From contig OZ316893.1 of assembly GCA_973895155.1 (NCBI GenBank), positions 27,786,210 to 27,850,209 of the forward strand: DNA of 64,000 nt. Reading direction: 5' to 3'. Origin of the DNA: Marsupella aquatica (taxonomy: Eukaryota; Plantae; Marchantiophyta). Position numbers and translations under genes: made by a program. This document shows positions 2,792 through 33,425 of the stretch, piece by piece. A model generated the notes under the pieces. That model was not told where the DNA came from and ran no database searches. It saw only the letters and a list, made by a program, of their open reading frames with translations. The stretch's first letter is position 1; each line of letters begins with the position of its first letter.

Positions 2792-3073
2792 AGAGAATCA
2801 AACAAGGATTATATAAGAGTACGTATTCCTATCCAACAGAGATAATTCAGATTACAGTATTCTATGAAAACAACTACTCAATACTGAATGAACCTCAAAG
2901 TAATCGCGAGAAATGAAGATGAAAAACAGATGTGAGCTCTTCCTTTTATAGTTTTTGGGGGCATTGGACACGTGGCATTCCCTGATTGGTCTGTACAAGG
3001 GTTTTTTCACGTGAGAGTCTGTCTTTTCAAAGAATGCTGAAATTTAAATTGTAGATTTTGGAGGAAGTTGTTG

Positions 3074-10800: not shown

Positions 10801-11198
10801 AACAACCCCAATATGGCTGACAAACGACTCAACCGAGCACCCTCAAAGATAGGTGTCCGGGCATGTTCCTTAGCCTCCTTTCATTGTTGTTGTCCCTCTG
10901 GAATATGTTGTGGTCGTGGGTCATTTTGGGGGGCAGCTCCTTCAACACTAATGTCAGGGACACCATCTTCAACATCAGCACCAAACCAATCAACCATGAA
11001 GTCATCCATGGCTCTGTCCTGGTCATGCATGACCTGGTCATCAGTCTGAGGTGTTGCTTCCTTATCACTATGATCACTTACATCATTACTTGATGAGGAT
11101 TCATCATCCTCTGATGGTTCTCCCTCTTCTGGCATGCCCATCTCCCGATATGCTGCTCTCAACCTTCGTGGTAACATTTGTTGAGATGGTTGCACATT
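7886..11198 (-). pseudogene. CACTA transposase (TnpD; Transposase_21/DUF4218/DUF4216), frameshifted
   Basis: ORF pieces with RHVRLGLASDGVSP..SVWPVVLMNYNLPPWL, LDPMHIEGNV, LKMHDYH, FFDCQVHLLVHL..GP...RWMYWLERYM..LKGYVRNRARVEGS, FKCKWF..EPFTFPSHVEQCFY. Confidence 0.92.
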
Positions 11199-11446
11199 CT
11201 ACGCACATCACAACCAAAAAACCTCTTGATGTACATTTCACCAGGTACAACAAAAACAGACTTCAGACCATTCATTCAAGACAAATTAACAATCAGTTTT
11301 AAGGATTGATTGCATGCATTCACATTAAGAACTTAAGTGAAGGGCCACACCAAAATTATACTACTCCAAAATGAGGCCAGAGGACATGTATATAATGATA
11401 AGTGTGAAGTACACACAAGGTACAAGAGGATGTATGACATGGCTCC

Positions 11447-12600
11447 CTAATCCCACTCATAGTGTGTGAATAACTCATCTCCAGCTCTAATAGTCCTAGT
11501 GGCAAGAACTAAGCAATGGTCTTTATGATATGTTGGTCCATATGGTGCCGGCATTGGGCCATCAGTAAAAACCCACTCACAATTGGCCCTACGCTTGGGT
11601 CGAGTCCCCACAGTACTATTTATAAAGCCAGCAATATTCCCATAATGTACGGGATCACCGTCTATCACCCGCTGCTCACTATACCTTCTAGTGCTACCAT
11701 GAAAAGTATCTATCTCTAGGGCATATATTTTCCACTCAGGATGTTGTGCAAGGATCATGTTCCAGTGTCTTCTCTTGTAGATGGGTCCACCGTATGGGAA
11801 CAAAGTAGGACCCTCTCTACCACAAGCACTTGACCCACTCCCATCATCCATGACGATATCCTCACAAGCAAATACTCCATATCCGTGTCTCTCTCCAAGT
11901 GTGGAAGCTTTCACATTCCAATGTCTACCCCAAACCACAATTATCTCCTCATCATAACCGGGAAAATAAGGCAAGCCAAGAGTCATAGGATCCCAATCTT
12001 TGATGATAGAGGCACACTTGCCAGTGAATGAACAAATGCCCCACCTACCCTCAACTAGTGTTCTTGATGGGTCATTGGGTGCTCATGGCCTCCTCTTGGA
12101 CTGGGGCCTGGACCGGGGTCTTCGTGTCTCAGTGGGCACATGAGACTGTTCCTCTTCAGTCCCATGATTTGTACTGACCCCTACACCCAAGGCTTGTGAA
12201 AGTGCATTGCCTATAGCATCTAAAACTCCTTGTGATGGGACATAGGGTGGTGGTGTCACCGGTCTACGCATACTGGATCCCTATTCCATGCAAAAACCCA
12301 CAAAAAACCATGTGTAAACATTGATTCACTTATGAAAATATGAGGGAAAAAAGGCAAACAATTGAAATCCACATGTACCATATGGGGTGAAGAAGCCCCC
12401 GGAGTAAGACCCCTGTGACGTCCATATCTCTCAATATGTTGAGCACACACATAAGATTTTTGAGAAACTTGGCCCACACATCTGGTGCACTCACAAAGTC
12501 TCCGGGGAGGATCACGAGGACCGGTAACCTCAGGTTGAGGAGGAGGGGGTACATCGGAGGAGGAGTACTCACTACTGGATAGTTCAGAGGAGGAGGACAT
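11447..12600 (-). CDS. Two-exon gene: CxCxxC..H (transposase-associated Zn-domain-like) exon plus SET-domain exon; one internal TGA at 12083-12085
   Basis: SET motifs GYGVFA, GNIAGFINST and ATRTIRAGDELFTHY in ORF 11447..11986. The frame continues up to 12280. Intron 12378-12281 (ATG|GTAC..AATAG|GGA, phase 0) joins exon 12600-12379 (CECTRC..CAQHIERYG). Confidence 0.8.
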
Positions 12601-13224
12601 ATCCACTGCCACATTACATTGCATGTAGGGCATGATTAGAATCCCTCTCGGCCAAAAAATATCCTAAAACTAAACTACAAAAACCCTTTTTTGTTTAGCA
12701 TGAAACCCAAAGGAAAGTGTCATGCACAAAAATATCACATTGTCACCCTTGGGAAAATTGTAATGGTCTAGGCCCTGAATTAGGTTAGTGAATTACCTGA
12801 ATGAGACCCGGGCTCAACAGTGCCTATAGGTCGTGTGGCTCAATGAACATGAGCCAAATCTAGAAGTAGGAGGAAAATACTGGAAAAAAATGTAAGTTTT
12901 GGATAGTCATTAGCATCTCTCAAGTTGTGGAACCCCAAACATAAGTTACACATATATATTCTTGCAAAACAAAAAATGGCAAGGTTTATGAAAAATCTCC
13001 ACTAACAACACTACATACATGTTATACCTTTTAGATGCCCGGGTTCCCACAATGCATATGCATTAGACAAAAGTTGAGGAAGTAGTGATGTCCCTGGGGT
13101 GTATCATGATTACATGGGTTTTCCCCTCAATTGTTAGCATAAAAATCTCTTAGAACTTTCCCTCATAAGTTACCGTATAATTAACCCAAGTGTCCATGAA
13201 AATAGAGCCTGTCTTTCCCTCCTA

Positions 13225-13640
13225 AGTTGGCCTAAACCCCAAAAGCCAAAACATAAACACCTCCTCTTATTCCAATACATATAAGCCAAACATTCATAAA
13301 ATGAAATCCCCCTGGCCAAACCCAAAACATAAAACACCTCATACATATTACCCTCCAATCTAAGCCCAACGTACCTTCATAAAATAAACCCTCCCCCAAC
13401 CAAACCAAACGTCCCTCCATTTACCCTCCAATACACATAACCCCAACCTTCATAAAATAAAAACCCTCCCAACCAGGCAAAACCCAAAAGCCAAAATATA
13501 AATCCCCGTCTCTTTCCTTCCAATATAACCCCCAATTTTCTGAAATAACACTCCCCCCAACCAGGCCAAACCCAAAAGCCGTAACATAAAACCCGGGCTC
13601 CTCTTACCCTCCAATGTCAGCACTTTTAAACCCCAACCCT
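13225..13640. repeat. Degenerate C/A-rich tandem repeats between the divergent CACTA genes
   Basis: Recurrent AAACCCAAAAGCCAAAACATAAA / TTACCCTCCAAT / CCTTCATAAAATAAA blocks. Confidence 0.65.
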
Positions 13641-15953
13641 TATATGATCACATGGAATGAATTACTTGTACCAAATTTAATGTTTATGACCCCTCTTAGT
13701 ATCCCTGCTCACAAAAAATACACATGCGAGATGGGGGTCTTTGCAAACCCAATAGCGAACATGTTTGCGAAGCCGTATTCTTTGCAAAGATACCATTTGC
13801 GAAGCTGGTTGAGAAGGTAGAACCATCGCAAACTGCGATGCAAATGACTTCGCAAACCCTAACTCTACTGTCCTTATCATTTGCCGAGCGCGGATGAGGC
13901 GGATCCATTTCTTTTGGGCCTTGGGAGAGAGCACCGCAGGCAAGGGAGGAGCGATGGCAAGCGGAGGGGGAACTGGAGGTGATGGAGGAGCTTCTGCCAG
14001 CAGCGGAGGCAACCACTTAGAGGAGGAGGATCGACTTCAAAAGATTGTGGATGACCATTTCTTGGTTGCGTAGTTGAGTAAGATTGATTTCACCTCTCCA
14101 GCAGGGCTTGCATCATTGAGTGCATTATTGGGCCAGGCCTTGCAATCTGGTCTCAGTGTAGGGAAAGCAGCAAGAGAGGAGGAAGAAAGGAGGACAGCCG
14201 AGCATAAGGCCGCTGAGAAGAAGCGAAAGAGGGATGAGAGAGCTCAGGCTGGAGTACTCTCCCCTCAAGCCTTGGAAAAGAAGAGGAGGAAAGATGAGAG
14301 AGACTTGATCAGGAAACATAGGGAGGAGCAGAGAAAGAAGGAGGAGGCAAGGAGGAAGCTGCCTCTGATTACATTAGAGGATTAGGGAATTCCCACAGAG
14401 CTTGCTTACAATGGGGCCAAGAGCACAATCAGACACATTGTGTCCACAAATTTTGCAAGAGGAGTCGAGTGGGGCACTCTCTCCAAGGCAGAGCAGAAGC
14501 GAGTGATCAATCAGGTGAAAGATGCATTCCGAAATGGAGGAGAGATGGATTCACAATGGCTTGCTGATAAAATCTCAAATTCCATGTCACAAGCACGATA
14601 CCATGACAGGATGAAGATCAGGGCTCACCTGAGAGATCTAGAGGAGTACAGGAATTTAGGGAGGCCGCAACAGTTCTTAGAAGATATCTGGCAGGCCTTC
14701 TACGCCACAGAGGTGAAGTTGAAAGCAGCCAGGGTCCTGAATGAATTTACAAAGAAGTTGACAAAGGCCTGGAAGGCAAAGGAGGCCAGGAAGTCTGACC
14801 ATGACCTGAAGATGATGGAGCAGAAGATGGCCCAGCTGCAGCAGGTTGTAGCAGAGGTGGGAGATCCGCCCAACAAGTTCTTGAAGGCAGCTGAGAGAGT
14901 CCAAGAAAAGCCCAACATCACCCACAGGCTTGGTCAAGGTGGCCTCCCCGGCCTCAAAGCAGCATTTGTGAGTGCACCGCCCTCTCCTCTCTTGACTTCT
15001 TACTCCAATTTCTATTCCAACACACCTGCAATGCCCCAACTCTTTTCTGTTGTGGCACCAAGTACTTCCAATTGGAGTTGTTGTGTCAGATTAGCTCACG
15101 AACATTTGCTTCCCTTTTGACTTTTCGTCATAACAGAAATTGCGAAGCATTTGCAATGCGCGTCGCTTCGCAACTGCTTTGCAAACCTTGTTATTCACTT
15201 TTTTGGAAATAAATTTGCGATGCCCTTGCGAAGCCCCGCGCATCTCAATCAATTTTGCAACCTAGTTTTCCCTTATGTTTGCGAAGCTGGAGACTTCGCA
15301 AATTCAAAAAATTTGAATTTTTGAATATTTCAAAACGTTCAAGTGTTGTTTGAGGGTCGTAAGTCCCCATGCCACCCTTGTAAAACCACCCCCCCAACCT
15401 AAGCCCCAACCCCACTAGCACCTAATTAACCCCTCTAATTGTTTTAAGGCATTTTGGCTTGCTGTTATTGCTTGGTTTTGACCGATTGTGCCGGTTTTTA
15501 TTTTGGTTAGTACAAGAGGTACAAGAGGAAGATCACAGCGCTGAGATGGAGGTGGGCCAGAAACATGGGAAGGAGCATCTCTTTCGGCAAGTTGATCAAT
15601 TATTGGTGAGCGTTAATTTTCAGGTTAATGTGTTGATTGCATTTATGAAAAATTCCCTCTTATGGATGTCATTCACTTAATTGTAAGGTTCTATATGACT
15701 AATGCATTGCTGGCTTGCTAATGTAACAGAGACCGGATGATGATGGTGACTCCCATACCGAGGGTGATAGTAGCAATGAGGATGAGGAGGGGACAGGGGA
15801 GGGGAGTATTGCTCCTGCTAGTCGAGTCAGGCCAACTAGCATTGGAGAGCAATCATTTGCATCAGCACACTCCACTGGTGCTGCGAGTGGTAGTGCGGTA
15901 GGGGATGGGGATGGTGATGGTGATGGGGATGGGGATGGTGGCGGTGATGGGGA

Positions 15954-18900
15954 TGTGGTGCGTCCCATGGCTCCCTAAACCCAAGAAACCCCCCCAGCGC
16001 AAGCCGATTCCCGTAGGTTTCGCGCTTGGCGAGGCTGTTTCCGCGGCTTAGCGGCATGGGACGCTGCTAACCTCCTACTACTACTATTAACATTTTACAC
16101 ACATATACTGGATAGATCCTTCATCGGGTCATGAGATACGTAGCCGGCCTAATCTAGGCCTTCCCTTGTCTTCCCCTCCGTCTTGTTAGGTATGTTTGGA
16201 TTCCGCCGCCGGAATGATCCCCAATAGGCTTGGTTAAGCCGCTAAGACCTCTCTCAGCTCGACACATCCAACTCTCACTCCCCTGCTTACTTTCCTTCCT
16301 CTATTGGTTGATGTGGACACTCTTCACACAAGTTAATGCGACACACAAATAGCAAAGTGACTCCTTCTGACTGAGTCATACCATGCACTTGCCATACAAA
16401 CAGTACATCTCATACACAAGCTCTGCGAACTAAGCCGTGAGGCCAACTCTATTCAGCTCTTAGGCATGAGGAAACATGAATATACACAAGGGTCACTGTA
16501 TGACTAACCGAGAGCTTCTCTTACTACTTGATCCCAGCCCGGCTGGTGCAACTAAAAACTTGCTAAAGAAGAGGCCCTGAGCTCCCCGCTGCCCAGGTAC
16601 TTATCCTGGTAGTGGATCCGCCTAATTCTTTGCAGCGTAAGCCTAATCTACTTAACTGGATCTACCTATGTACAGTGAGGCAGAAGTACAAGTGTTGCTC
16701 TTACCAGTGGAACCGCAATCCCACTAAGCTAAGTGTCAGGGCCGCCTCCTGGTCCTGATCCTAATCCTAAACTTAGAGATCTGAGCCCGCTCTGCCCACT
16801 CACGCCTCCTCCCTCCACGTCCGCCCTTCCTAAAAGGAACGGCGCCCTTGCACCGTCACGACACCGGTGGTGGATCCTCAATGGACGCCCCCAACGCTCC
16901 CTCCGCAACCACTGCCGTAGGTTCGTTCTCTGACAGATTACCTGCCCTTGACTGAGTCAACTCTCCATCGGCCTGACTGGGCCCACCCCCGGCTTCGGCC
17001 TCGGCTCAGAAATCATTCTCGGCTACGGCCTCAGCCTCGGCTACGGCCTCCCCGGCCTGCTCAAGAGGTGGATCTAGGATACCGGCCTCATTACTGAGTA
17101 GTTCGGCTTGGGCCGCGCCATCCCCACCTTTGGTGATAGCGGGATCTATTGCCGTGTTCAAGCCGGAGGTTGGTACCGGTTTGAGTACGGCTTGAGGGGT
17201 CGAATAACCTCCGGACCCCGAAGGTTTCCGCTTCTTCTTCTTCAATATCTCCATAGCCGGTTCCTTCCCCTTGCCGCCAATGTCCGGCACCAGGCCGTGT
17301 GTCACGGCTGGTCCTTCGGCAATTACCACCCCGGGTAACTGGTTTGCGCCAACGGGAGATGGACCTGATGCAGCTAAGCATTTAAATACTGCGGCTTGTT
17401 TCTTCAGCCGCTTTGTTTGGTTGTCGGCCCGCCGCTGTAGGTTCTCCATCTTCCTCGTGATTTCCTCCAACTCCTCCTGGGTCTCATCCAGGTCCTTACG
17501 TGCCTCCTCTAGCTCGTTTTTGGCTTCCTCCAATTCCTTCTTGGTGGTAGCCCTCTCCTCCTGGGTTGCTCTTAGCTCCTTGTCGAGCTCCGCTACGACC
17601 TCAGACTCCATGTTATTCATCTTGGCATAAGTCTGGTCGAGCTGGGCGTCCGTCTCCCGCAGGTCGGCCTTGAAGCTGGCCGTCAGGGACGCAAGCTCCT
17701 GCTGTAGCGCAATAATCCCTTGATAGGATTTCCCTAACTCGGCCTCCTTCTGCTCAAGGGCTCTGTGGATGACCTCGAGCTCTTCCTTCAGCGCCCTCTC
17801 CCTTCTCTGAGTCTCCGCCGTGACCCGGTTGTTGACTGCTATATGGGCCTCCTCTGCGTCTCTCAACTCCTTCTTCCATTTCTCCCTGTCCTTGATTGCG
17901 TCGGCCAATTCTCCCTGGGTCTGAGTCAGTTTATCCTTGATAATCTGATTATCAACCTACGCAGTGTCCAACTGCCCCTGCATGATGTTCAGCTCATGCT
18001 GCTTAATCCGCAGTTCATCTTGGGCTTTCTTGGCCGCCCTTAGATCTTCAATCTGGGCTTCCATCCTCCTAAGCCGCCGGATGACCTCGTCCTTCTTGCT
18101 TCTCTCTAAAGCCACCGCTTCTTCTAATTGGTGCTTCTCCAACTGCTCCCTATGGAAAAAGGGTCCTACCTCCAACTCCTCCCCAAAGATGCCGAGCGCA
18201 AGTTCCCCACATATCTCACCATACTCCATGGCTCTATTTTTAGCGTAGGTGGAGTAAGTAGAAGTGATCGGCATCGCCCATCGCGGCCTCTGCTCCCAAG
18301 CCGTCTTGCGGATCTCTTCAATCGTGGCTAGAGGTTTGCTTCCTTTTTTGGCTAGCCGCCTGATGTCCTCCGGCCAATCTCCTCCTGGCAAATCCTTTTC
18401 CCTAGCCAGGGCTGCCTTTTCTACTTCCCTAAGTCGCTCCTGAAATTCCTGTGCCGTCTGCTTTATGCCGTCAAAGCTCGGGGGAGCAACATCTGGTGGG
18501 GGAGACTCGGGGCTACTCTGCTGGTTGGGGTCCCCTCAAACTACCCTTGGAAGTGTGGGGATAAACCGGCCACAGGTCCTTACTCCTGGAACGTGATGGT
18601 CCGACCCATAGCCGGAGTTATCATGGCTGCAGTCCTCCACTGCCTCCTCCACCTCTTGGACTTCCGGCTTCTCCCTCTCCTCTTTGCCGGTAGGAGCTTC
18701 AAGCAATTCTGCCTCAGATTCAGAGCTTGAGACTCCCACGTACATTCGAACACCCAGCTTGGATTCTGGCCTGATTCTTCCGGTAAAGGGGTTTTCCCTT
18801 CTAAGTCTGCTTAGGTTGACCTCTGGGGCAGTGTCCTGTATTGGTGCCGCTGCCGAAGCTAGTGCCGCCTTTTCCTTCTCCAGCATTTTCAGCAGATTCT

Positions 18901-20580
18901 GCATGCTTGGTTGCTGCATCGGCAAGTCTTCCTTCCTTGGCCTAAACACCTGCTCAATCGTAGGGCTAACAGGTGGTTGAGGCTTCTCTGCTACCGGCCT
19001 TGGTGCTGGAGCTTCCTCGGGTGCCCTTACCTGCAGGGGAAGTACTGGGGCAAAGGTCTGACCTCTCGCATACCGGCACAACAGCGGCATGTGATAGCCA
19101 AGCCGCGACACGCTCCCCAGGCCGATTACCTGCTGCTCCTCCTTTAAGATCTTCTTCAATTGGTTGAGGAGGTACCCGTTGTAGTCCCGGCTTGGGTCTG
19201 GCCTCTCTGCCAGATAGACTTGTGCCTTGCCGATCTCTGCCCTCGGCAAGTTACAATGCATGGTCACCCGCAAGAAGTCGATCATCTCTCCTATGTGCGG
19301 GTTGGTGCAGGTGTTCCGGAAGAAGCCATTCTTCGTTGATGGCCCGGGGAACGACCGGAACTCCTTGTCAGGCAAGGTCTTCCTGGTATCAACTTTGGTC
19401 TTATTGCCTATCGGCAAGCCAAACACTTCGGCAATCACCTTGGGAGTAAGATAGAAATCCTTCCCATATATCCTCGTGGAATTGGTCTCGGGTTCCCATG
19501 ACCCCACGAATTCTAATAGGTCTGAATCCGGCACCTCCGGCTTCAGCCATGGTAATCTTACAAAGGCCTCTAAGCCGGATCCGGCCATGAAGCCTTGGTA
19601 CTTCTTGGTCTGCATGGCCGTAAAGCATGCATCCTCCTCCCGTGCAAAATGTAGTTGCACCTCCTCTGGTAGGGTTGCCGCCCAGCCTTTCCAGGTGTCA
19701 TCCCTGGTTGGAATGGCATTGATGGGATCGTCCTCCTCCTCTTCGGCTTCTCCCTGCCTCCTGCTCTGCTGCTCAGCTGGCTTCTTTGGTGCCGCCAACC
19801 TCGTTCTTTTTGTCGGGGTGGCTTCATCGTTGACGGCTCCCTTCCTCTTCATTTTGGCTCCTGTGGATGTCTCTCCTAGCACGGTTGCCTTTGTCCACCC
19901 CTCCGTGCTACCCTTCAACTCCCAGTGTATGTTGTTGTAGTGTTTGATGGCTTCTCGGATGCCGACGACTCTATCTTCGCAAAACAAAAGATCGTCGAGC
20001 TGATTGGAAGTAGGAGTCCACAAGAACTCGGCCTTGATGAGTTCGCCTCCTAAGAAAGCCGTCTTCTGCAGCTCCCACAATCGAGTGAGCTCCTGCCATT
20101 CTCGAGCTGCCCTTTCTGATTCTTCATCCTCGTAAGTCTTGATGTATTCAGTTGCCCGTTCGAATAGCATCCCCAGAAATGTGCCGCTTGATTGACGTTG
20201 CTCATACCCTCCTTAGGTCGATCGTCAGTATCTACTCTCTCCCCGAGTGCTTGCCTAAGCAGCTGACAGTAGTTGGCCTCCCGTAGTCATCTGCCTAGTT
20301 CGTGCTCGCAAATGAGCCACCATTCCCTGCAAGCGCTCCTTACCCCTCTCCTCTTTCGGTTCTTCCTCCCGTTGATCCTTCCTAGCCGCCGACGCTTAGT
20401 GCGCCCTAACCCTAATCTTGTTTTCACGCCCAGCGTCCTTACCTCCGGCCTCGGCCCGGGTTCCATAGTCGCCCCTAATTGTTTATATTTTCCTTGTTTT
20501 GTCCCTATACTAAGGTGTTTCTAGGGTACACTTCCCTTTTCCCCTTAAACTAGCCCAGTGATTCCTGACTAGGCATCACA
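15954..20580 (-). mobile_element. Solo LTR (4627 bp) of the gypsy family at 20779-28030
   Basis: TG...CA ends with an 8-bp imperfect IR (TGTGATGC / TGTGGTGC); 5-bp TSD GGGGA (15949-15953, 20581-20585). Its 5' end TGTGATGCCTAG matches the sequence starting right after the PPT at 24393. Confidence 0.88.
17006..20466 (-). pseudogene. LTR-encoded ~1150-aa protein (PMD/plant-transposon-domain-like plus long coiled coil), copy A
   Basis: ORFs 18536..20170, 17957..18391 and 17006..17908 join across nonsense codons that are sense codons (CGA, CAG) in copy B. ATG (MEPGPRPEV) lies ~115 bp inside the LTR. GLEAF..LLEFVGSWEPET..LTPKVIAEVFGLPIG motif. Confidence 0.8.
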
Positions 20581-20778
20581 GGGGATGAGGATGAGGATGA
20601 GGAGGGAGACCAAGAGGAGGAGGAGGCCCCGGTCCCCCACCCCCGCCCCCCCAAGAGCATGCAAGGGCAAGGAGAAGGCCAAGGGGAAGAAGTCAAGGAG
20701 GGGTAGGAACCAGCTTGCCGATGCCGAACGAAACTACTCCACCACAGAAAGAGAATTGGGGTAAGAAGGAGTTCACCT

Positions 20779-23700
20779 AGCCAAAGTAATAGAGGATTGG
20801 GGTAAGAAGGAGTTCACCTTTGGGGCCCCATCTATCACGTTATCCTGGGACACCAAGGATGACCGCAGGAAAAACATCAGGTAGATAGATGGGTACGACA
20901 GTGGACTGGAATCCGCCGATGAAGTACGTTGGCTAGAATGCCTCACTGACCTAACCGAAGAAAGTGTGTTTGGACCGGAAGAGCCCTCCAGCGGACTATG
21001 GCATGAACCTATGGAGAGTAACCTGGAGGAAGGTGAAGAAGAGACCAAGGATTGCTTTGCCATAGAGTCAACATTTTTAGCTTCAATTCCGGAGGAGACA
21101 CAAGAGGCGGATCGGCTAGATGAAACGGCTCGGTGGGGAGCTACACCAGAGACAATGGATTTTCCTCGGGCGTTGTGGCAAAACCGACAGGATCCACAAC
21201 GCCGTCTATCATCGGCAACAAATTAAATACCAAGGGATCGGCTTACAAGCCGATCACAAGGGCAGAACAAATTGAGGCCCTGCTAGAAGCCGGAAGAGCA
21301 CGACAGCCTGACCCTCAGGAAGCAAGAATAGATAAGATGCACGGGAAGAAACCAGAGCCGAGTCAAGAAGGGGAGCTGAGAACCAATTCAAAACCAAGCA
21401 GAACGGTAAGGGAACAGTCTATTAATAACCAGGGAGAACCTAAGTCAACCAACTCGGCTAGTACTGCCAAGATTCCAGTCTATGGAGGTATGAGACTAGA
21501 GAGGCTGGAAGCCGAGTTGGACCCAAATTTGAAGAAGCAGATTAATATGATCCAAGCACGGCAATACCGAAAGCTAGACTTAGGAGAAGGAAGGGAACTG
21601 AACTTGGGGCGGGACCTAGCACCTGAGCTTGAGAAAGAGATCAGTGAATTACTAATTGAATTTCAGGATGTGTTCGCATGGAGTCACCAAGATCTGAAGG
21701 GAGTAGACCCAAAACTAGGAGAACATCGAATCGATCTCATGTTAGGGGCCAAATCATTTCAACAATCGATTTGAAGGATGAACCCTAAGTATTCTCTGAT
21801 GGTCAAGGCTGAAATCGATAAACTAGTGGAAGCCGGATTCATCACTCCATTCCTGCATTTTGACTAGGTGTCTCCAATTATGATAGTTCCCAAGAAAGCT
21901 GGACCCGATGGTAAACCAAAGATCCGGGTTTGTCAGGATTACAGGAAGTTGAATGAGGCTACGTTAAAAGACCATTTTCCCTTACCCTTTACTGATATGG
22001 TACTAGACATGGTAGCCAATCATGAGCTATACTCATTCATGGATGGATACTCTGGTTATAACCAAATCAGGATTAGGCAGGAGGACCAAATCAAGACAGC
22101 CTTCATCACAGAATGGGGGATCTGTGTCTTCAATCGTATGCCGTTTGGACTCTGTAACGCACCAGCTATGTTCCAACGATTAATGGTGAACATTTTTCAT
22201 GACTACTTGAGAAAATTCATGGAAATCTTCATTGATGACTTTGCAGTAGTTGGGAAGGCATCGAAACATGCTAAATACCTCAGGAAGACCTTCATGAGAT
22301 GCAGAGAGGTAGGCCTCAAGTTACACCCAGATAAATGTTTCTTTGCCGTAGCAGAGGGTGTGCTACTAGGTCACAAGGTATCAAAAAAGGGCATTGAGAT
22401 TGATAAGGGTAAGCTAGCAGTGTGGCTAGATATCATGCAACCTAAGAACATAAAGGATGTGAGATCCTTCTTGGGTTGCATTGGTTATTATCGCCGGTTC
22501 ATCAAGGATTTTGCCAAGCTAGCTTTACCATTAACCAACATGCTCAAGGCAGGTGCAAACTTTGAACCTACACCAAAACGAGTGACAGCGGTAGTGGAAT
22601 TGAAGCAGATGTTAGTAGAGGCCCCAGTCATGATAGCACCAGACTGGAACAAGGATTTTCATGTCTTTGTAGATGTCTCAGGCTTTTGTATCGGCTCAGT
22701 ACTAAGTCAGTTAGATGAGAAAGGAAGGGACCATCCTATATACTTTGCAAGCCACCAGCTTGCCGATGCCGAACGAAACTACTCCACCACAGAAAGAGAA
22801 GCATTAGGAGTCATTTATTCATGTAAAAAGTTTAGGCATTATCTGCTAGGGTACAAGGTAATCTTTCATACTGATCATGAAAGTTTAAAATACCTAGTAA
22901 ATAAGCCGGAACTTACAGGCAGGGTAGCAAGATGGATTTTGCTATTACAAGAGTTTGACTACGAGTTAAAAATCAAGCGAGGAAAGCTACACGCCAATGC
23001 CGACTTCTTTTCAAGGATCACAGGTGAACCTACCACGGATTGCATCGACGATCGATTTCCCGACGAGGAGCTATTTGTTGTGGAAATAGCTGATACATGG
23101 TACCCTAAGATTTTACAATTTCTCAGCACTTCTAGATTACAGCCCGGACTAAGCCGAGAGCAAGCCGCAGTCTTTTTGCGGAAGGTCAGACAGTATCAGT
23201 GCATTAAGGGCGTGCTACACAGGCATGGAATCAGCAGCACGATTCAAAGGTGTTTGGAGGAGGGAGAGGTAAAACGAGTCTTACGAGCTATGCATGGGGA
23301 GGAGGCCGGGGGATATTTCGCTCCAGTAACCACTTCTAAAAAGATATTAAATGCCGGTTACTGGTGGCCCACCTTGCACAAAGATGTCTATAAGTTTATC
23401 AAACAATGTGATCCTTGTCAACGAGCAGGAGGACCAAGGGCGTCCACAAGACATCCACTGCATCCTATTCTACCTCTGGCACCATTTGAGAAGTGGGGTA
23501 TTGATTACATCGGACCCCTGAAACCATTGACCCATCCTCGAAGAAACAAGTACATAATCTTGGCCACGGATTATGCAACTAAGTGGGTAGAGGCCAGGCT
23601 GACAACGAAGGATGATGCAATTACTACGGCTTGATTCATGTATGAGCAGATCTTCACCAAGTATGGCGCACCCTTAGAATTAGTTAGTGATAGAGGAACC

Positions 23701-24404
23701 CATTTTCTGAATGATATAATTAGTCGTTTAAATGAGCAGTATTTAGTTAGACCTAGGCCTACTACTCCCTACCACCCAAAGGCAAACGGGTTGACAGAAC
23801 GAGCCAATGGAATTATAGGAAAAATATTAAACAAAACTGTAGCCTAGAACAAACTCGATTGGGATGATGAATTGTTTGCTGCTGTTTTTGCTTACAATTT
23901 AGCCTATCCACTACCGGTCATACACCTTTTTTCTTAACCTTTGGACAGGAAGCTCTGGTACCCATGCAACTTGAGATCCCTACATTTCAAGTTACAATTG
24001 AGGAGAGAACCTCAGAGGAGGAAAGCCTAAAGGATCGAGAATATAGATTAGAGGCCTTAGAAGAGGCAAGAATGATTTCAGCCGAGAGAGTAGAATATAG
24101 ACAGAATACCATGAAGCAGCGGTATGATAAAAGGTTGAAACTAGTTAGTATTCACACAGGAGATCTTGTATTACTTTATGACAGTAGGTATAGTAGGTTT
24201 CTGGGGAAACTTTATACTTGCTGGTTAGGACCTTTCAGGGTATCAATGAAGTTCTCTAATAGCTCTGTGCAATTGGCCAACATAACTAGAGAGGTGTACC
24301 CAGTTCGCATCCATTACGACCGCCTCAAGAAATACTATATGGACGAAGATGAAGTTGTTTGCAAGGACGCTTCACAAATAAGTGGGGAGCTATGTGATGC
24401 CTAG
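20779..24404 (+). pseudogene. pol: gypsy pol (RT, RNase H, integrase) with several stops/frameshifts
   Basis: SPIMIVPKK, QDYRKLN, DGYSGYNQI, MPFGLCNAP, FIDDF (RT); DVSG, EREAL, TDH (RNase H); CDPCQ, IDYIGP, SDRG, ERAN, WLGPF (integrase). Confidence 0.95.
24376..24389 (+). other. Polypurine tract of the gypsy element
   Basis: AAATAAGTGGGGAG, 3 nt before the TG of the 3' LTR. Confidence 0.75.
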
Positions 24405-27400
24405 CCAAGAATCACTAGGCCGGTTTACATGGTAAAAGCAGGAGTGTACCCTGGAAACACCTTAATATAGTAACAAGACAAGGAAAATATAAACAATTAA
24501 GGGTGACTATGGAACCCGGGCCGAGGCCGGAAGTAAGGACGTTAGGGGAGAGAACACGATTAGGGTTAGGGCGTGTTAAGCGTCGGCGGCTAGGGGTGAC
24601 CAACGGGAGGGAAGACAAGAGGAGGAGAGGGGTAAGGACTGCTCGCAAGGAATGGGGGCTCATTTGCAAGCACGAACTGGGCAGACGACTACGGGAGGCC
24701 AAATACTGTCAGTTGCTTAGGCAAGCACTCTGGGTGGGAACAGATACCAACGATCGAGTTAAGGAGGGTATGAGCAACGTCAATCAAGCGACACATTTTT
24801 GGGGATGCCTGTTCGAATGGGCAACTGAGTACATTGGGACTTACGAGGACGAAGAATCAGAGAGAGCAGCTCGAGAACGGCAGGAGCTTGCTCGACTGTG
24901 GGAGCTGCAGAAGTCTGCCTTCTTAGGAGGAGAACTCATCAAGGCCGAGTTCTTGTGGACTCCTACTGCCAATCAGCTTGATGACCTTCTGTTTTGCAAA
25001 GACAGAATCGTTGGCATTCGGGAAGCCATCAACCGTTGCAACGACGCGCACTGGGAGTTGAAGGGTAGCACGGAAGGGTGGACAAAGGCAACTGTGCTAG
25101 GAGAAACATCCACGGCAGCCGAGATGAAGAGGAAAGGAAACAACAACAAAGAGGCCACCCCGGCAAAAAGAACGAGGTCGGCAGCACCAAGAAAACCAGC
25201 AGAGCAGAAGAACAGGAGGCAGGGAGAAGCCGAAGAGGAGGAGGTCGATCCCATCAATGCCATTCCAACAAATGATGACACCTGGAAAGGCTGGGCGGCA
25301 ACCCTACCAGAGGAAGTGCAATTACATTTTGCATGGGAGGAGGATGCATGCTTTACGGCCATGCAGACCAAGAAGTACCAGGGCTTCATGGCCGGATCCG
25401 GCTTGGAAGCCTTCGTAAGATTACCATGGCTGAAGCCGGAGGTGCCGGACTCAGACTTATTAGAATTTGTGGGATCATGGGAACCCGAGACCAATTCCAC
25501 GAGGGTGTATGGGAAGGATTTCTATCTCACTCCCAGGGTGATTGCCGAGGTGTTTGGCTTGCCGATGGGTAATAAGACCAAGGTTGATACCAGGAAGACC
25601 TTACCTGACAAGGAGTTTCGGTCGTTCCCAGGACCATCAACAAAGAATGGCTTCTTCCGGAACACCTACACCAACCCGCACAATCGGAGAGATGATCAAT
25701 TTCTTGCGGGTGACCATGCATTGTAACTTGCCGAGGGCAGAGATCGGCAAGGCTCAGGTCTACCTGGCAGAAAGGCCAGACCCAAGCCGGGATTACAACG
25801 GGTACCTCCTCAACCAACTGAAGAAGATCTTGAAGGAGGAACAGCAGGTGATCGGCGTGGGAAGCGTGTCCCGGCTTGGCTATCACATGCCGCTGTTGTG
25901 CCGGTATGCCAGAAGTCAAATCTTTGCCCCAGTACTTCCCCTATCGGCAAGGGCACCGGAGGAGGTTTCGGAGCAGAGGCCGGCAACAGAAGAGCCCAAC
26001 CAGCATGCCAGTCCTACGATCCAGCAGGTGTTTCGGCCAAGGAAAGAAGACTTGCCGATGCAGCAATCAAGCATGCAGAATCTGCTGAAAATGCTGGAAA
26101 AGGAGAGAACGGCACCAGCAACGGCAACGGCACCAGTACAGGACACTGCCTCAGAGGCCGGCCTAAGCCGACTCAGGAGGGAAAACCCCTTTACCGGAGC
26201 CAAGGAGAGAAGGAGGCCGGAACACAAGTCGAGAGTGCGAATGTATGTGGGAGCCTCAAGCCCCGAATCGGAGGCAGAGCAGCCTAAGGCTCCTTCCCGT
26301 GGAGAGCAGAGGGAGAGGACAGCCTGGAACCCAGAGGAGGAACAAGAGCCCGTGATCTGTGAGGCCATTTTCACGGCAGGACCAGGGGAACAGAGGGGGA
26401 AGTCGGGAGTCCAAGCATTGGAGGAGGCGGTGGAGGACTACAGCAACGATAACTCCGGCTATGGGTCGGATCATCATGTTCCAGGAGTAAGGACCTGTGG
26501 CCGATTTATCCCCATGCTTCCAAGAGTAGTTCGAGGGGACCTCACTCAGCAGAGTAGCCCCGAGTCTCCCCCACCAGAGGTTGCTCCCCCGAGCTTTGAC
26601 GGCTTAAAGTAGACGGCACAAGAATTTCAGGAGCGACTTAGGGAGGAAGAGAAAGCAACCCTGGCTAGGGAGAAAAATTTACCAGGAGGAGATTGGCCGG
26701 AGGACATCAGGCAGCTTGCCGAGAAAAGAAGCAACCCTCTTGCCACCGTAGAAGAAATCCGCAAGGCGGCTTGGGAACAGAGGCCGAGGTGGTTGATGCC
26801 GATGACTTCTACTTACTCCACCTATGCTAAAGATAGAGCCATGAAGTACGGGGAGATGTGTGAGGACCTGGCGCTCAGCATCTTTAATTTGGGGAGGAGT
26901 TGGAGCAGGGACCTTTCTTCCAGAGGGAGAGGTGGGAGAAGCACCGATTAGAAGAAGCGGTGGCTTTGGAGAGAATCAAGAAGGACGAGGTCATCCGGGG
27001 GCTTAGGGAGAAGGAAGCCGAGGTGGAAGTCCAGCAGGCGGCCAAGAAAGCCCAAGATGAGCTGCTGATTAAGCGGCATGAGCTAAACATCATGCAAGGA
27101 CAATTGGATGCCGCTCAGTCTGGCAGTCAAATTATCAAGGATAAACTGACTCAGACCCAAGGAGAGTTGGCTAGCGCGGTCAAGGACAGGGAAAAGTGGA
27201 AGCAAGAGCTGAGGGATGCAGAGGAGGCCCACTTAACCGCCAACAACCGGGCCATGGTGGAGACTCAAAGAAGAGAGAGGGCGTTGAAAGGAGAGCTCGA
27301 AGATATCCGCGGAGCCCTTGAGCAGAAGGAAGCCGAGTTAGGGAAATCCTATCAAGGGATTATTGCGCTGCAGCAGGAGCTTGCGTCCCTGACGGCCAGC

Positions 27401-28030
27401 TTCAAGGATGACCTGCGTGAAAAGGACGACCAGCTCGACCAGACTTATGCCAAGATGAATAAGATGGAGTCTGTGGTCGTAGCAGAGCTCGACAAGGAGC
27501 TAAGAGCAACCCAGGAGGAGAGGGCTACCTTTAAGAAGGAATTGGAGGAAGCCCAGAAGGAATTGGGGGAAGCCCAAAAGGAGCTGAAGGAGGCGCGCAA
27601 GGACCTGGACGAGACCCAGGAGGAGTTGGAGGAAATCATGAGGAAGATGGAGAACTTACAGCGGCGGGTCGACAACCAAACAGAGCGGCTGAAGAAACAA
27701 GCCGTAGTATTTAAATGCTTGGCTTCATCAGGTCCAACTCCAATTGGGGCAACCCAGTTACCAGGGGTAGTATTGGCCGAAGGACAAGTCGAGACACTCA
27801 CCCCGGTACCGGAGGTAAGTGGCAAGGGAAAGGAACCGGCTGTCGAAATAAGGAAGAAGAAGAAGTGGAAACCTTCTGGGCTGGGTCTGGGAGTTATACG
27901 GCTTCTCAAGCCGTTGTGACCGAGAAGATTAACCCGGCACCAACCTCCGGCATCGACACGGCGATGGATCCACCAGTCCTAGGAAGTGGGTATGGCAAGG
28001 CCGGGACAACCAGTAATGAAGTCGAGGCTT
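24393..28030 (+). repeat. 3' LTR (truncated at ~3.6 kb), inverted homolog of 15954-20580
   Basis: Starts TGTGATGCCTAG; collinear with the reverse complement of ~17080-20580; similarity ends at ~28030. Confidence 0.88.
24509..28030 (+). pseudogene. LTR-encoded ~1150-aa protein, copy B
   Basis: ORFs 24503..25726, 25542..26612 and 26900..27919 are homologous to copy A; its lesions are at different positions from those in copy A. Confidence 0.8.
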
Positions 28031-28803: not shown

Positions 28804-31800
28804 TGTGTCCTTCACTTCCCTCCTTCTAAGCTTGACAACAAATAGTCTGTTAATTTTCATGGGCAATTTAGCTTATAGCCACATTTCCTATAATCAAATG
28901 TGTTACCTAGTAGGTGACAAGAGAATATGCCCAGGAGAGGGTGTTAGTGGCGTGATAATAGATCACTATATACCTTGTGCTTCTTTTAGCTAGTGATATT
29001 TGTCTCCATGGTGGACAACCACCACACCACCAGGCTTGACTGCTCTTGAGAGTTCTGTTAGACAAGCAAAAATAGTGGTGTCTTAGCAACAGATATTCTC
29101 AAGTATGTATGGCTAAAAAATCACTCGATTCATTTAAATTGGAATTTTCTTTGATCTTTGTACATTTGGGCACTAAAATACAATTATTATTTTTAGGCAC
29201 AAGAGTGGTACATTTGAGTAGTGAAAGCTGTAAATAGGGCACCAATGTTCAATAAAAATTTAGGGGAGAAAAAAGTTTTTATTGGGGAAAAGGAATATCA
29301 TTTTGGTTTTAAAGAAAAACATTTGGCCATGTGGTAAAAATGTAAAATTGGTTGGATAATCAAGCAACATTTGCCAAACTTTGCCTTTAGCTGTAGTTGG
29401 ATTTGCCAGATCTCTGAAGATTTGATGGCTGTCGTTAAGATCATGAAAAAATTAAGGCTTTTGAGAACTCTCATTTAATTATATTAATTTATTCTCACCT
29501 TTGTATTTTTACTACTTAGCTGTCCCCCTCACTGGATTTCTTATGCAAATTCATTCTAAATAAAACCTACCACAATGAATGTCCCATGTTAGGCATTTAC
29601 TCAAGGAGTTACTATTCAATCATGGCTTTTAGGCTGACCTTAGTCGGGTGCTTGGCTAAGGTTAGGTGTGTTACTACTGGTGGATTGCATGATTGAGGAC
29701 TACCAAAGGAGGCAAAAATGTCTCCACTCCTTTTAAAAGTCCTTACACTGCCAACGGCCAAGATTAGGCTGATCTAAAGCAAAAAGTACTTTAACAAATC
29801 AAATACGTATGAGGCACATTCATTACTGTGTTGAGCTCCCGAGGGAACTCCTTTCTTGTCTCGACATGTATTTTATTGTTGGACAACTGGTTTTATGGGA
29901 GAGTGTCGGTGCTATTCATTCCCTTAGGACTTTTTGAAAACAAGGAGTCAGACTCCTTTGGACTTAGGTGCGGGACAGAGTAGTGGCAGATAGAAGTACT
30001 CGGGCGCTTTTGGTGTTCAAGATTCTTGTCTTTCCACTTGCAACTCATTGAGAAAGTATTGAAGCTGAGCCTTGTGGAGCGCAAATGGGTAGCAAAGTCC
30101 TCTAGAATTGCTGCATTCACGTCTAGCTACATGGGTTGAATTGATTTGAAGAGTAGTCGTGCGGTGTGAGCCCAGATGCAAAGGCCAATCAAGCGCGAAA
30201 AGGGACATTGATGTTCAACGCAAAAAGAAAGGCCTTGGTTGAGCTACAGATTTAATTTAGGGTCTAGAGCCTTCTCTTGGCGAATGACATTCAAATCTAG
30301 ACAGGAGCGACAGGAACAAGCAAAGAAAGAGGGCCAATCAAGCTGCAAATTCGATTACGTTGTGAGCTTGTAGGTTTGTCAATGACATTTGATACCGGAA
30401 GGGAACATTGGAAAAGAGCACAGAGAGGATGGTCGAGCAGTCACTCAATCACCAGGTGCCACTTTAAATCTTGCTTTGCTTTCGTTTGGAAATAGGATCT
30501 GAAGTTGCATTGGAATCAACAGAATTGAAATAGTTTAATAAATGCAGGTTCGCTTTTGTTTTTCAAGAGAACAGAACAGATCTAGGTTGCGTTGGCCTCA
30601 GGAAGGGTAGCAGGAGAGATTAAATGCGTTCAGATTTTGTGAGGTACTCGTTATAAATTGAAATGCATGGTATGTACTAGGTGACAAGGAAGTTCAATGT
30701 CAGGCTATCAAAGTGGGACTGTCAAAGCGGGACTACTGTGATTGTTTCAAGCCTTTGATCGTGACGATGTTGAGTCACGCGTGTTAATTTGCATTGCGCT
30801 CCTTGACATGCAAGCAAAGAGTGGGAGCAGGGGCCGTGCAGAGCTTTTCCGTCCCTTCTTTATGTTACATGAGTAGGCCAAAATGGTCACAATGAATCAG
30901 GTATCTGATGCCCTAGCAAGAGAGAAGCTGGAGAAGCGAAGATTGGCGAACCGCAAATCCAAGTTGAAAAAACAAGAGCAGATAGCAAGTGGTCAGCAAG
31001 GAGGTGGTCACCAACCATCTCTCTCTGATGAAATGATTCTTGAAGCACAAAAGCAATGCGATCTCATGATGGAGAGTGCAAAGCAACAATGCCAAGATTT
31101 AGTAATTGATGGCAACCGAAGGCGAAGAGAGATATTGGCTGCTGGGCAATCAGAGGTGATATTGGCTGCTGGGCAATTAGTAATGAGGCTCATGAAGCTG
31201 CCACTGTGGTCTTGCGTACAGCCCGAGAAGAAAGTGAAATTCTTATGGAGACTGCACATTCATGCCTTGCCGAGCTTTTAGAGTCTAGGCAGGGGTCCCT
31301 AAGTGCAAGCATTCTAGAACAGGATGCCCACATTCAAATGGTAGAACAGAGCACCCAAACTGATTGCAGACAAGTGCAGGCAGCCCACATTGGTCCACTT
31401 AATGAAGGTGAGCAAGATCACAACTCTGGCTGTGATCGCCAAGTGCAGCAAGCTGCCATGCTTGAGAAGAGAAGGAAGGATGCAGGCAAGAAGAGAATTG
31501 AATATGAAAGGACGAAGCGCTCTGCTGCTGATGACTGTGAAACTCCCAATCGAAAGCGTAGGTGTATTACAGCTGTCTCATCAGATATAGTTAGGTACAT
31601 TCTGGAGAAGACTGCTACATTCAATCTAGGTGCAAGGAGGGCAGTACTATCTGGGGTCTGGTTACACAAGTATTTGAAGAAGTACCAGCCGACACGACTA
31701 GGTTCACCTAAAGTAGATGGGGCTGTAGCTGCTGCATTGATTGATGTGAGAAAAACCTTGAGCATAGTGAAGCCAGGGAAGTGCAAAGACCACCTCGCTG

Positions 31801-32309
31801 CAAAGTACCAAGTTCTGTCAGCACTTGTAGGAAAGACATGTGTAGATAAAAGGCAGCAGACCTCTCTAGCGAAAGCTTTGGGTATACAACGGCAAAATCT
31901 TCATAGAGCATCTAAGATGAGGATACAGATTGATGCAGACAGTAAAAAAATGTATCCTATGGGGGAAAGAAAGGTACGTCGAGACAAGATTTCTGATGAA
32001 GTTCGAATCCAGGTGGAACACTTTTGGGAAACTCACACTAGGATTTCTCCATGTAAGAATAATGAAGCCAGATTGCGACTAGGATGGAAAATGGTTCAAA
32101 CACATCAAGTGCACTGGCTGGAGGATACACAGGTGAGAAACTCTATGTGATTGATGTAACTGTTATGTCCATTTTGCCAGATTTGATTGAACTCTTATCT
32201 CCACTCCTTGATGAGTAATTTTCCTTGTTAGTCAACCATTGTGATCGCTACCCAGTGTGTTGTAAAGGTAAGATTTGAATAAATTTTGTGGCCTAAAGAC
32301 TGTTAGTAG

Positions 32310-32835
32310 TCCCTAGTCAAGGACTATTAATAACTGACGAAGGACTATGGTCAGGACTGTAGTCCTTCCCCAAGGACCTTAATAGTCCTTTCTCAAGGAC
32401 TATACTCCTTTCTCAAGGACTTTACTCCTTTCCCCAGGACTGTGCTCCTTTCTAGTCCTTTCTCAAGGACTTTACTCCTTTTCCAAGGACTCTATTCCTT
32501 TTCCGAGGACTATAGTCCTTTGTTAAGGACTCTACTCCTTTTCCAAGGACCAGAGTCCTTTCTGAAGGACTCTACTCCTTTTCCAAGGACTCTAGTCTTT
32601 TCGTAAGGACTCTAGTCCTTTTCCAAGGACTCTACTCCTTTTCCGAGGACTATAGTCCTTTCTGAAGGACTCTACTCCTTTTCCAAGGACTCTACTCCTT
32701 TTCCGAGGACTATAGTCCTTTCTGAAGGACTCTACTCCTTTTCCGAGGGACTATAGTCCTTTCTCAAGGACTATACTCCTTTTTCGAGGACTATACTCCT
32801 TTTTCAAGGACTTTAGTCCTCTTCGATCCGAGGAC
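32310..32835. repeat. ~21-bp minisatellite of palindromic AAGGAC-N5-(G/C)TCCTT units in transposase intron 1
   Basis: About 20 tandem units such as AAGGACTCTAGTCCTTTTCC. Confidence 0.92.
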
Positions 32836-33138
32836 TCCTGTTCCAAGTTTTTAAGTCGAGTGCATTGAGTACTTGAGTCCTTCCAAATTGATTCTACTCC
32901 TTCCCTAAGAACTTTAGTCCTTCACCTCTCTTGGTAGAGTCTTCCAATAAGAGCTTGGACCCTTATTGAAGGACTGTAGTTGCAGGCAGAACTGAAGTCC
33001 TTCAGTAAGTAGTAGTACCCACATACATGGGTTTTTGTGGCTGCACATTTGAGGGTATCCGTTCCTAACAGTCTTTCTAACAAAAATAATGTATGTCTTG
33101 TATATGTATAGTTCCAATTTTTTTCAGCATTTTGTGAC

Positions 33139-33425
33139 CTCGGGGGGTTAACTAAGTGTATATTTTGGGGTACCACGTGCGATCCTAGCCTAATATAAAT
33201 AGACCTATTTTATAAAGAAAATATTCCAAGAATATTCTCTATTTTAAATATTAATAACCTATTTTACTTTATAAAGGGTATATATTAAAGAATATTCTAT
33301 AAACATGAGTTTATAATACCTTCTTTTGCCTCCTACGCATATAAAATTTTTAGTTAAAATCTGTCAAAAATACATATTTTGGATCGCACGTGGTTCCTAA
33401 GATTTTTGATAATCAACCCCCCGAG
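33139..33425. mobile_element. MITE, 287 bp, 8-bp TSD, inserted in Sola2 transposase exon 2
   Basis: Ends CTCGGGGGGTT / AACCCCCCGAG; inner IR ACCACGTGCGATCC / GGATCGCACGTGGT; perfect TSD TTTGTGAC (33131-33138 / 33426-33433). Removal restores FQFFSAFCD|WCTREQ. Confidence 0.93.

What the first reader, a model, noticed from the sequence alone, without database searches (positions are those of the whole stretch)
15954..28030. A gypsy retrotransposon whose 4.6-kb LTR is itself a protein-coding gene
Seen: the segment starting at the TG after the PPT (24393) recurs inverted at 15954-20580 as a TG..CA unit with a 5-bp TSD, i.e. a solo LTR. About three quarters of that LTR (from nt ~115) is one ~1150-codon reading frame. 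The two copies have different lesions, each a sense codon in the other copy, and show synonymous differences (GGC TTA GAG GCC TTT vs GGC TTG GAA GCC TTC), which suggests purifying selection. Known: extra ORFs of plant gypsy elements (Ogre ORF1, Athila env-like, Tat/Retand antisense) lie between the LTRs; LTR-encoded genes are a retroviral feature (MMTV sag, the nef overlap). Inference: the gene would be duplicated at every integration and survive solo-LTR recombination, the host's main removal route. Its EFVGSWEPET..LT..IAEVFGLPIG motif resembles the plant mobile domain (MAIN/MAIL1 silencing factors), so it could be a chromatin or anti-silencing effector.
Basis: partly seen in the sequence, partly recalled or inferred. 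Interest (0 to 1): 0.92.

Follow-up and report, generated by a model that had tools for sequence, protein, structure and literature searches.

The report
Giant retrotransposon end carrying a gene
A 4.6-kb repeat, very likely the end-repeat (LTR) of a plant jumping gene, carries across 70% of its length a 1,100-codon protein gene kept by purifying selection, so the gene would be copied twice at each jump and would survive deletion of the rest of the element; the protein is predicted to act in the nucleus, likely helping the element stay active.

Summary
15954-20580(-) is a 4,627-bp TG..CA unit with inverted ends and a 5-bp target duplication whose removal leaves the host exon in frame. An 84-87% identical copy starts right behind the purine tract ending a Ty3/gypsy pol (24393). 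Laid contigs rise 25-153-fold at the unit's edge and cover tail and ORF about equally, so the whole unit is one high-copy repeat with no short inner LTR. The frame is under purifying selection (dN/dS 0.28; core domain 0.10). Corrections: the selected gene starts at Met 20205/24770, not nt 115, and the plant-mobile-domain label is only a lead (no Pfam hit). The protein has a nuclear-signal-like motif, a coiled coil and no membrane helix; named relatives are liverwort proteins. Best reading: an LTR that is a self-contained gene cassette for a nuclear accessory protein. Not shown: a full element with two such LTRs, a primer-binding site, expression, function. My phrase searches found no plant precedent; MMTV sag is the nearest published case. 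This scan has noted LTR-borne genes before in moss, flatworm, fungal and animal windows (unchecked notes). New variant of a known kind.

The parts
15954..20580 (-). Copy A: complete 4,627-bp unit, read as a solo LTR
   Evidence: TG..CA, 7/8 inverted ends, 5-bp duplication, depth step at both ends
15949..15953 (+). Target-site duplication, left copy
20581..20585 (+). Target-site duplication, right copy
20482..20487 (-). Only TATAAA of the unit (nt 94; nt 96 in B); predicted promoter of the gene
   Evidence: motif scan; function inferred
16856..20205 (-). LTR-borne gene in copy A, 1,066-1,116 codons, broken by one frameshift and two or three stops
   Evidence: dN/dS 0.28; start from codon bias and P0017; read with X at stops
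19880..20205 (-). Conserved N-terminal domain of about 110 aa, no known family
   Evidence: dN/dS 0.16; relatives P0005, P0006, P0017
19799..19849 (-). Bipartite nuclear-localisation-like motif, kept in B
   Evidence: pattern scan; B translation; function predicted
19022..19741 (-). Core domain of about 230 aa, PMD/DUF1985-like as a lead only
   Evidence: dN/dS 0.10; 18 of 21 phmmer hits fall here; ESM 0.86-0.89; no Pfam hit
17381..18151 (-). Long coiled-coil region
   Evidence: sub-threshold SMC, ATG16 and filament hits; heptad signal; dN/dS 0.27
15954..16855 (-). Non-coding 0.9-kb tail of the unit, partly T-rich; would hold the poly(A) signal and U5
   Evidence: role inferred; no Rfam family
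20790..24404 (+). 5'-truncated, decayed Ty3/gypsy pol (RT, RNase H, integrase); no gag or 5' LTR in the window; last codons run 12 nt into copy B
   Evidence: Pfam RVT_1, RT_RNaseH, Integrase_H2C2; best PDB match Ty3 Gag-Pol, E 8e-71
24380..24389 (+). Polypurine tract directly before copy B
24393..28024 (+). Copy B: 3'-truncated copy in the 3'-LTR position; gene from Met 24770
20709..20819 (+). Repair-type junction: exact 47-nt copy of 22754-22800 plus a 29-nt duplication, joining the host exon to the pol fragment
15731..15953 (+). Acidic exon of a host transposon gene into which copy A inserted (continues 20586-20705)
   Evidence: frame test; CACTA-type DUF4216/DUF4218 at 7886-9324

Best explanation
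The 4,627-bp unit is very likely the LTR of a high-copy, non-chromovirus Ty3/gypsy family of a likely bryophyte host, and it holds a purifying-selected gene of about 1,100 codons that is predicted to make a nuclear accessory protein, likely a chromatin-acting factor that keeps the family transcribed. Shown: integrase-type ends, a target duplication, a second copy starting at the PPT, one repeat unit at high copy, and selection on the frame. Inferred: (1) reverse transcription copies the whole 4.6 kb into both ends, so each insertion carries two gene copies and LTR-LTR recombination leaves one, as in copy A. (2) The only TATA box lies at nt 94, so transcription would start near nt 125, cross a 250-nt leader and end in the 0.9-kb tail, which makes each LTR, solo or not, a complete transcription unit. 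The genomic RNA would arise by read-through or splicing (splice-donor-like sites at nt 139 and 238), or from a second promoter in the tail. (3) In evolutionary terms this is an Athila/Ogre-type extra ORF that became part of the LTR when a priming site came to lie on its other side. (4) The product (nuclear signal, PMD-like core, acidic linker, coiled coil, no membrane helix) would oligomerise and act in trans on element chromatin. Odds: LTR identity about 0.8; a self-contained transcription unit about 0.55; the anti-silencing or transactivating role about 0.35.
For: Ends, duplication and host-frame test. B starts 3 nt after a GGGGAG tract (45 such sites on both strands of the window, 3.5e-4 per site) and exactly where integrase ends. 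Summed contig depth steps up 25, 45, 103 and 153-fold at 15954 in 4 of 4 runs and drops 8- to 23-fold across 20556. Two listed joints lead from inside the unit to exactly 15954, so other insertions share that end. Tail-to-core depth is 0.47-1.01, not the 2 or more expected if only the tail were the LTR. The first and last 200 nt have no counterpart elsewhere in the unit above shuffles. dN/dS 0.28 (bootstrap 0.22-0.35) over 1,074 codon pairs, 0.10 in the core; the two other sense frames give 0.91 and 1.29. A's breaks at 20166, 17959 and 17008 are absent from most of the laid depth (33,146 of 37,381 in X2; 131,224 of 133,401 and 13,018 of 13,557 in X1). Named relatives of the core are Calypogeia fissa proteins. 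Published extra ORFs of Athila and Ogre carry Transposase_32 or PMD, nuclear signals, or SMC-like coils.
Against: No full element with two direct copies, no gag and no primer-binding site was seen; B lacks its last 1.1 kb, so its right end and flank cannot be checked. Summed contig depth is no copy number and depends on divergence (tool caveat); the two joints are single contigs of one run, and 101 joints were not shown. Selection is measured on one pair of copies. No family library names the protein; ESM scores are under 0.9 with 137-142 shared features; the best model has pLDDT 58 and pTM 0.25. The promoter, splice sites and nuclear signal are pattern matches. PMD proteins of Arabidopsis silence transposons, and anti-silencing by transposon-borne PMD is put as speculation in PMC5418596.
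Confidence: 0.7

Rival explanations
1. The unit is a separate gene-carrying mobile element with integrase-type ends (non-autonomous, moved in trans); copy B happened to insert behind the PPT of an unrelated gypsy element.
For: No PBS or second direct copy was seen; B's right end is missing; the unit is high-copy as a whole.
Against: B starts 3 nt after the purine tract and inside the last four integrase codons, a site of the order of 1 in several thousand. The unit has no terminal direct repeats for reverse transcription and no transposase family hit. Break density is similar in pol (4 stops and at least one frameshift in about 1,090 codons) and B.
Confidence: 0.13
2. Full elements have short LTRs with the ORF internal; copy A is a deletion derivative.
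For: This is the published norm for plant extra ORFs.
Against: No repeat of the unit's start or end inside it; the ORF lies downstream of the PPT in B; the tail is not over-represented relative to the ORF.
Confidence: 0.05
3. The unit is the LTR, but the gene lies in U3, as MMTV sag does, with the element's own promoter in the last 0.9 kb; the gene is then expressed mostly from the 3' end of element RNA, and solo LTRs add little.
For: Retroviral precedent (PMC9412291); avoids a 4.5-kb minus-strand strong-stop DNA; many plant promoters lack TATAAA (own knowledge).
Against: The only TATAAA is at nt 94 in both copies, and the first 114 nt differ at 16 of 114 sites against dS 0.33, which suggests a constrained promoter upstream of the gene.
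Confidence: 0.3
4. The architecture is as in the best explanation, but the protein serves integration targeting, nuclear import or RNA export, not chromatin de-silencing.
For: Nuclear-signal-like motif and coiled coil fit a scaffold; reviews propose such roles for extra ORFs (PMC7264820). Copy A sits inside another transposon's exon.
Against: The nearest feature-space families are PMD and DUF1985, and PMD proteins act on chromatin; a stand-alone promoter suits a trans-acting regulator.
Confidence: 0.3

Closest known systems
Extra ORFs of plant non-chromovirus Ty3/gypsy elements: Ogre ORF1 (PMD, in 57% of Ogre elements), Athila 3' ORFs (Transposase_32, PF03078), Retand TRP28/SMC-like ORFs (PMC6317226, PMC7264820, PMC11728184, PMC11963269)
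   Same: Family-wide conserved accessory ORF; nuclear signal; coiled coil; core domain near PMD/DUF1985 in feature space; LTRs of about 5 kb are known in this group.
   Different: Those ORFs are described in the internal region, between the LTRs. Here the ORF lies behind the PPT, inside the repeat, and is present in a solo copy. No Pfam family is met.
MMTV sag/naf in the U3 region of the LTR (PMC9412291, passages)
   Same: A protein gene inside the LTR with an LTR promoter, copied to both ends.
   Different: A vertebrate retrovirus; the product is a superantigen shown on the cell surface. Here a plant retrotransposon, about 1,100 codons filling 70% of a 4.6-kb LTR, with no membrane helix.
Cassandra TRIMs with 5S rDNA-like sequence in the LTRs; retrozymes with LTR ribozymes (search listings)
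   Same: Plant LTRs that carry a functional genetic module of their own.
   Different: RNA modules in small non-autonomous elements, not a protein gene; Rfam finds nothing here.
Retrosat2/RIRE3 of rice: LTRs over 3.2 kb and ORF0 (PMC3485330, passages)
   Same: Long LTRs, many solo LTRs, an extra ORF under selection.
   Different: ORF0 is described upstream of gag-pol and was searched separately from the LTR; chromovirus lineage; no similarity was tested.

Membership tests
Ty3/gypsy LTR retrotransposon | pol order RT-RNase H-integrase | tested here: met
   Pfam; Ty3 Gag-Pol best PDB match, E 8e-71
Ty3/gypsy LTR retrotransposon | Polypurine tract directly before the 3' LTR | tested here: met
   24380-24389, then TG at 24393
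Ty3/gypsy LTR retrotransposon | Two direct LTR copies around gag-pol | not testable with these tools
   No genome held; the element's 5' part is lost in the window; locus scans empty
Ty3/gypsy LTR retrotransposon | Primer-binding site after the 5' LTR | not tested
   No 5' LTR-internal junction in the window; none among the loose ends listed (2,575 not shown)
Solo LTR | TG..CA with short inverted ends | tested here: met
   7 of 8
Solo LTR | 4-6-bp target duplication on both sides | tested here: met
   5 bp; host frame kept with one copy; empty-site-like contig
Solo LTR | Matches the terminal repeat of an element and holds no gag/pol or inner LTRs | tested here: met
   Matches B from nt 1; no gag/pol family; no inner repeats
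Chromovirus | Chromodomain after integrase | tested here: not met
   No Pfam family in 23871-24401 at E<=0.1
Tat/Ogre/Retand | Additional archaeal-type RNase H domain | tested here: not met
   Only about 100 aa between RNase H and the integrase zinc finger; no such hit in pol; feature from PMC6317226
Athila / Phygy / Selgy | Placement in the RT-RH-INT tree | not testable with these tools
   No reference set on hand; the Athila-like look of RT is recalled. Phygy's NCGN target preference does not fit the 5-bp site here.
Plant mobile domain (PF10536) and kin (DUF1985, Transposase_32) | Profile match at the family cut-off | tested here: not met
   0 hits for the domain and for 28 of 28 relatives
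Plant mobile domain (PF10536) and kin (DUF1985, Transposase_32) | Remote similarity by features or fold | tested here: inconclusive
   ESM 0.87-0.89 to a DUF1985 cluster (82% of members) and 0.86-0.88 to a cluster with PMD in 14%; weak model, no fold match
Env-like ORF | Transmembrane helix | tested here: not met
   Highest 19-residue hydropathy 0.92 in 4 of 4 segments from 20164 to 16859

The most novel reading that the evidence does not exclude
A bryophyte gypsy lineage has turned its LTR into a complete gene cassette (promoter, 1,100-codon chromatin-effector gene related to PMD, terminator). Every solo LTR left by the host's recombination remains an expressed gene whose product protects or activates the family in trans, so the host's main removal route leaves behind a large pool of helper genes.
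Probability: 0.3. Interest if true: 0.9.

Novelty: new variant of a known kind. Interest (0 to 1): 0.72.

Why it matters
Plant LTRs are treated as non-coding, and solo-LTR formation as the end of an element's coding life. The reviews read here place extra ORFs between the LTRs, and the main survey scored them only as up- or downstream of the polyprotein (PMC6317226, section 20). A gene of over 1,000 codons inside the LTR would change that, would mean reverse transcription copies a 4.6-kb terminal repeat with a gene in it, and would show that priming sites can move across an accessory gene. It also gives a direct test of an open question: whether retrotransposon-borne PMD-like proteins are anti-silencing factors, the mirror image of MAIN/MAIL1. 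For annotation, such solo LTRs would be called host genes.

Tried and rejected
No whole genome is held. Word-indexed protein searches: none for B's first ORF, none among longer proteins, 2 of 7,995 candidates with the alignment. Locus scans found no relative: metagenomes 0 of 155 and 0 of 52 stretches, viral contigs 0 of 2, prokaryote genomes 0 of 112; the alignment was too variable for pattern search. No RNA holder listed. Single-sequence fold pLDDT 35; alignment fold pLDDT 58; Foldseek no match at E<=0.001 in PDB or BFVD, VIA best Z 5.2 on a 52-residue helical pair, all uninformative; PDB profile search only E 1.5 and 3.3. A profile-to-profile comparison with PMD, DUF1985 and Transposase_32 was not made, so that link stays open; the PMD sequence supplement of PMC5418596 was listed, not opened. 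No Rfam family in the window. ATG at nt 115 rejected as the selected start. The antisense frame that shares third positions gives dN/dS 0.31 but has 26 stop-bearing pairs against 3, so it is the mirror of the sense gene. A short 5' LTR plus PBS inside the first 420 nt was rejected: no CA-TGG junction shared by both copies, no inner end motif. A's last 1 kb against the minus strand of the rest of the window scored 40 against a shuffle maximum of 32 (10 shuffles), too short to be an LTR copy and not followed up. A continuation of B beyond 28030 was not found. Two phrase hits proved not to be precedents (PMC6673714, PMC1560396); MDG1 sORFs lie upstream of gag.
Full report
1. Observation. A self-comparison of the window shows an inverted pair: 17142-20580 matches 24393-27971 at 84.1 and 86.7%. 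Copy A, 15954-20580 on the minus strand, is 4,627 bp, starts TG, ends CA and has GGGGA on both sides. Its ends are inverted complements at 7 of 8 bases; the right-end motif occurs only at nt 4620 and the 10-nt start only at nt 1. Copy B begins at 24393, three bases after a purine tract; A 1-3498 aligns to B 1-3632, and nothing above shuffles continues after 28030. Upstream of B lies a decayed pol with RT, RNase H and integrase in gypsy order (best solved relative Ty3 Gag-Pol, E 8e-71), whose last four codons run into B. Gag and the 5' LTR are missing; the pol fragment is joined to the host exon through an exact 47-nt copy of its RNase H region and a 29-nt duplication, which I read as a repair scar (inference).

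2. Is the duplication real? The 5-mer lies in a repeat-rich tract (5 copies in the 60 nt to the left), so it could be chance at about 1 in 10. Keeping one 5-mer leaves the acidic host exon in one open frame; keeping both shifts the frame. One contig of run X4 joins 15898 to 20581 with 20 other letters between, that is, a related host copy without the unit.

3. Is the whole unit one repeat? Contigs of 4 of the 8 listed runs were laid on 15600-20900. Summed depth rises 25, 45, 103 and 153-fold from the bin left of 15954 to the first bin inside, and falls 8- to 23-fold from bin 20379-20555 to bin 20556-20732. Two listed joints, both in X2, run from inside the unit to exactly 15954, so other insertions share this end; 101 joints were not shown. 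The non-coding tail has 0.47-1.01 of the depth of the core coding domain; a short terminal LTR would be expected at twice or more. The tool warns that this depth is no copy number and it varies with divergence, so I claim only 'high copy, same ends'.

4. The gene. Nei-Gojobori dN/dS between A and B is 0.28 (bootstrap 0.22-0.35) on 1,074 codon pairs, with dS 0.33; the core domain gives 0.10 (0.05-0.20), the N-terminal domain 0.16, the coiled coil 0.27; the other sense frames give 0.91 and 1.29. The 87 codons after the ATG at nt 115 show no third-position bias (17/12/11 against 102/83/186, Fisher p=0.007), and relative P0017 starts at the Met at nt 376. The selected gene therefore runs from 20205 for 1,066 codons to the 17006 stop, or 1,116 to 16856 if that stop is private. 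That is 69-72% of the unit, followed by a 0.9-kb tail.

5. The protein. N-terminal domain, bipartite nuclear-signal-like motif, core domain of about 230 aa, acidic and proline-rich linker, long coiled coil, basic patch, acidic tail; no membrane helix. phmmer over 1.84 billion representatives gave 21 hits at E<=0.001, 18 of them on the core. Of 10 looked up, 3 carry an organism name, all Calypogeia fissa, as does P0028; the ESM neighbours with recorded taxa are streptophyte. A bryophyte host is inferred, not shown. Pfam names neither the core nor any of 28 relatives as PMD, DUF1985 or Transposase_32.

6. Mechanism. Shown: integrase-type ends, position behind the PPT, solo state, selection. Inferred: the unit is the LTR (about 0.8), so the gene is duplicated at each integration and survives LTR-LTR recombination. 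The only TATAAA is at nt 94 (96 in B), and the first 114 nt differ at 16 sites against dS 0.33, so the gene likely has its promoter at the very start of the LTR and each LTR would be a full transcription unit (about 0.55). Donor-like sites at nt 139 and 238 could splice past the gene to gag-pol (pattern only). The alternative is a U3 gene with the element's promoter in the tail. I commit to a nuclear, trans-acting chromatin factor that keeps the family transcribed (about 0.35); targeting or transport roles are nearly as likely. The main structural rival, a separate element that inserted behind the PPT, needs a hit at a site of about 3.5e-4 per base that also coincides with the integrase end, but it is not excluded without a full element or a PBS.

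7. What is known. PMC7264820 (parts 1 and 2 of 3: all main text, part of the references) and PMC11963269 (passages) place additional ORFs in the internal region. PMC6317226 (passages and section 20) finds PMD in 57% of Ogre elements, reports LTRs up to about 5 kb, and scored extra ORFs only as up- or downstream of the polyprotein. PMC11728184 (passages) reports Transposase_32 and nuclear signals in an Athila ORF. PMC5418596 (passages, supplement list only) shows PMD genes in silencing and speculates on anti-silencing by transposon copies. PMC9412291 (passages) gives MMTV sag in U3. PMC3485330, PMC6431247, PMC12885004, PMC11952523, PMC6673714 and PMC1560396 were seen as passages and give no protein gene inside a plant LTR. 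Cassandra and retrozyme papers were seen as search listings. Steinbauerova 2011 was not read. Phrase searches for an ORF in an LTR found no plant case; the library holds only open PMC papers and bioRxiv, matches exact phrases, and supplements or Repbase entries may hold such elements. Earlier notes of this scan describe LTR-borne frames in a moss, a flatworm, a fungus and an animal; they are unchecked and unrelated in sequence to this one.

8. Verdict. A real feature and a new variant of a known kind: an accessory gene of the plant gypsy type in a retroviral-style position, at unusual size. It works like an extra ORF; it is not filed as PMD, env, Tat/Ogre or chromovirus. Interest 0.72; the boldest reading (expressed helper genes in every solo LTR) has probability 0.3 and would deserve 0.9.

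Noticed in passing
window 38760-40662 (-): ORF with a weak likeness to the same core domain (hhalign probability 4.9%, E 0.008, 108 columns), then a coiled coil and a RING-like Cys/His motif; possibly a distant relative in another element.
   Followed up: partly
window 7886-15120: CACTA-type transposase pieces (DUF4218, DUF4216) on the minus strand with a SET-domain frame at 11447-12082 (E 8.6e-7, under 30 bits) beside them; may be a histone-methyltransferase domain carried by a transposon.
   Followed up: no
window 20709-20819: Junction with an exact 47-nt copy from 2 kb downstream and a 29-nt duplication, like templated filler at a repaired break.
   Followed up: partly
window 31110-35532 (+): Several frames of a transposase-like gene with no Pfam or NCBIfam name; the DDE-like look is recalled. 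Tandem repeats at 32353-32922 resemble those at 37121-37819.
   Followed up: no
window 58989-60576: Copia RT/RNase H fragment (-) overlapping a plus-strand frame with an RNase H1 N-terminal (Cauli_VI) domain, E 5e-19.
   Followed up: no
window 20255-20323 (-) and 24652-24720 (+): A 22-codon upstream frame in the leader is open in both copies; may regulate translation or be chance.
   Followed up: no
window 5500-5777 and 46668-46946: A 280-bp repeat at 81% identity; also tandem arrays at 56019-57845.
   Followed up: no
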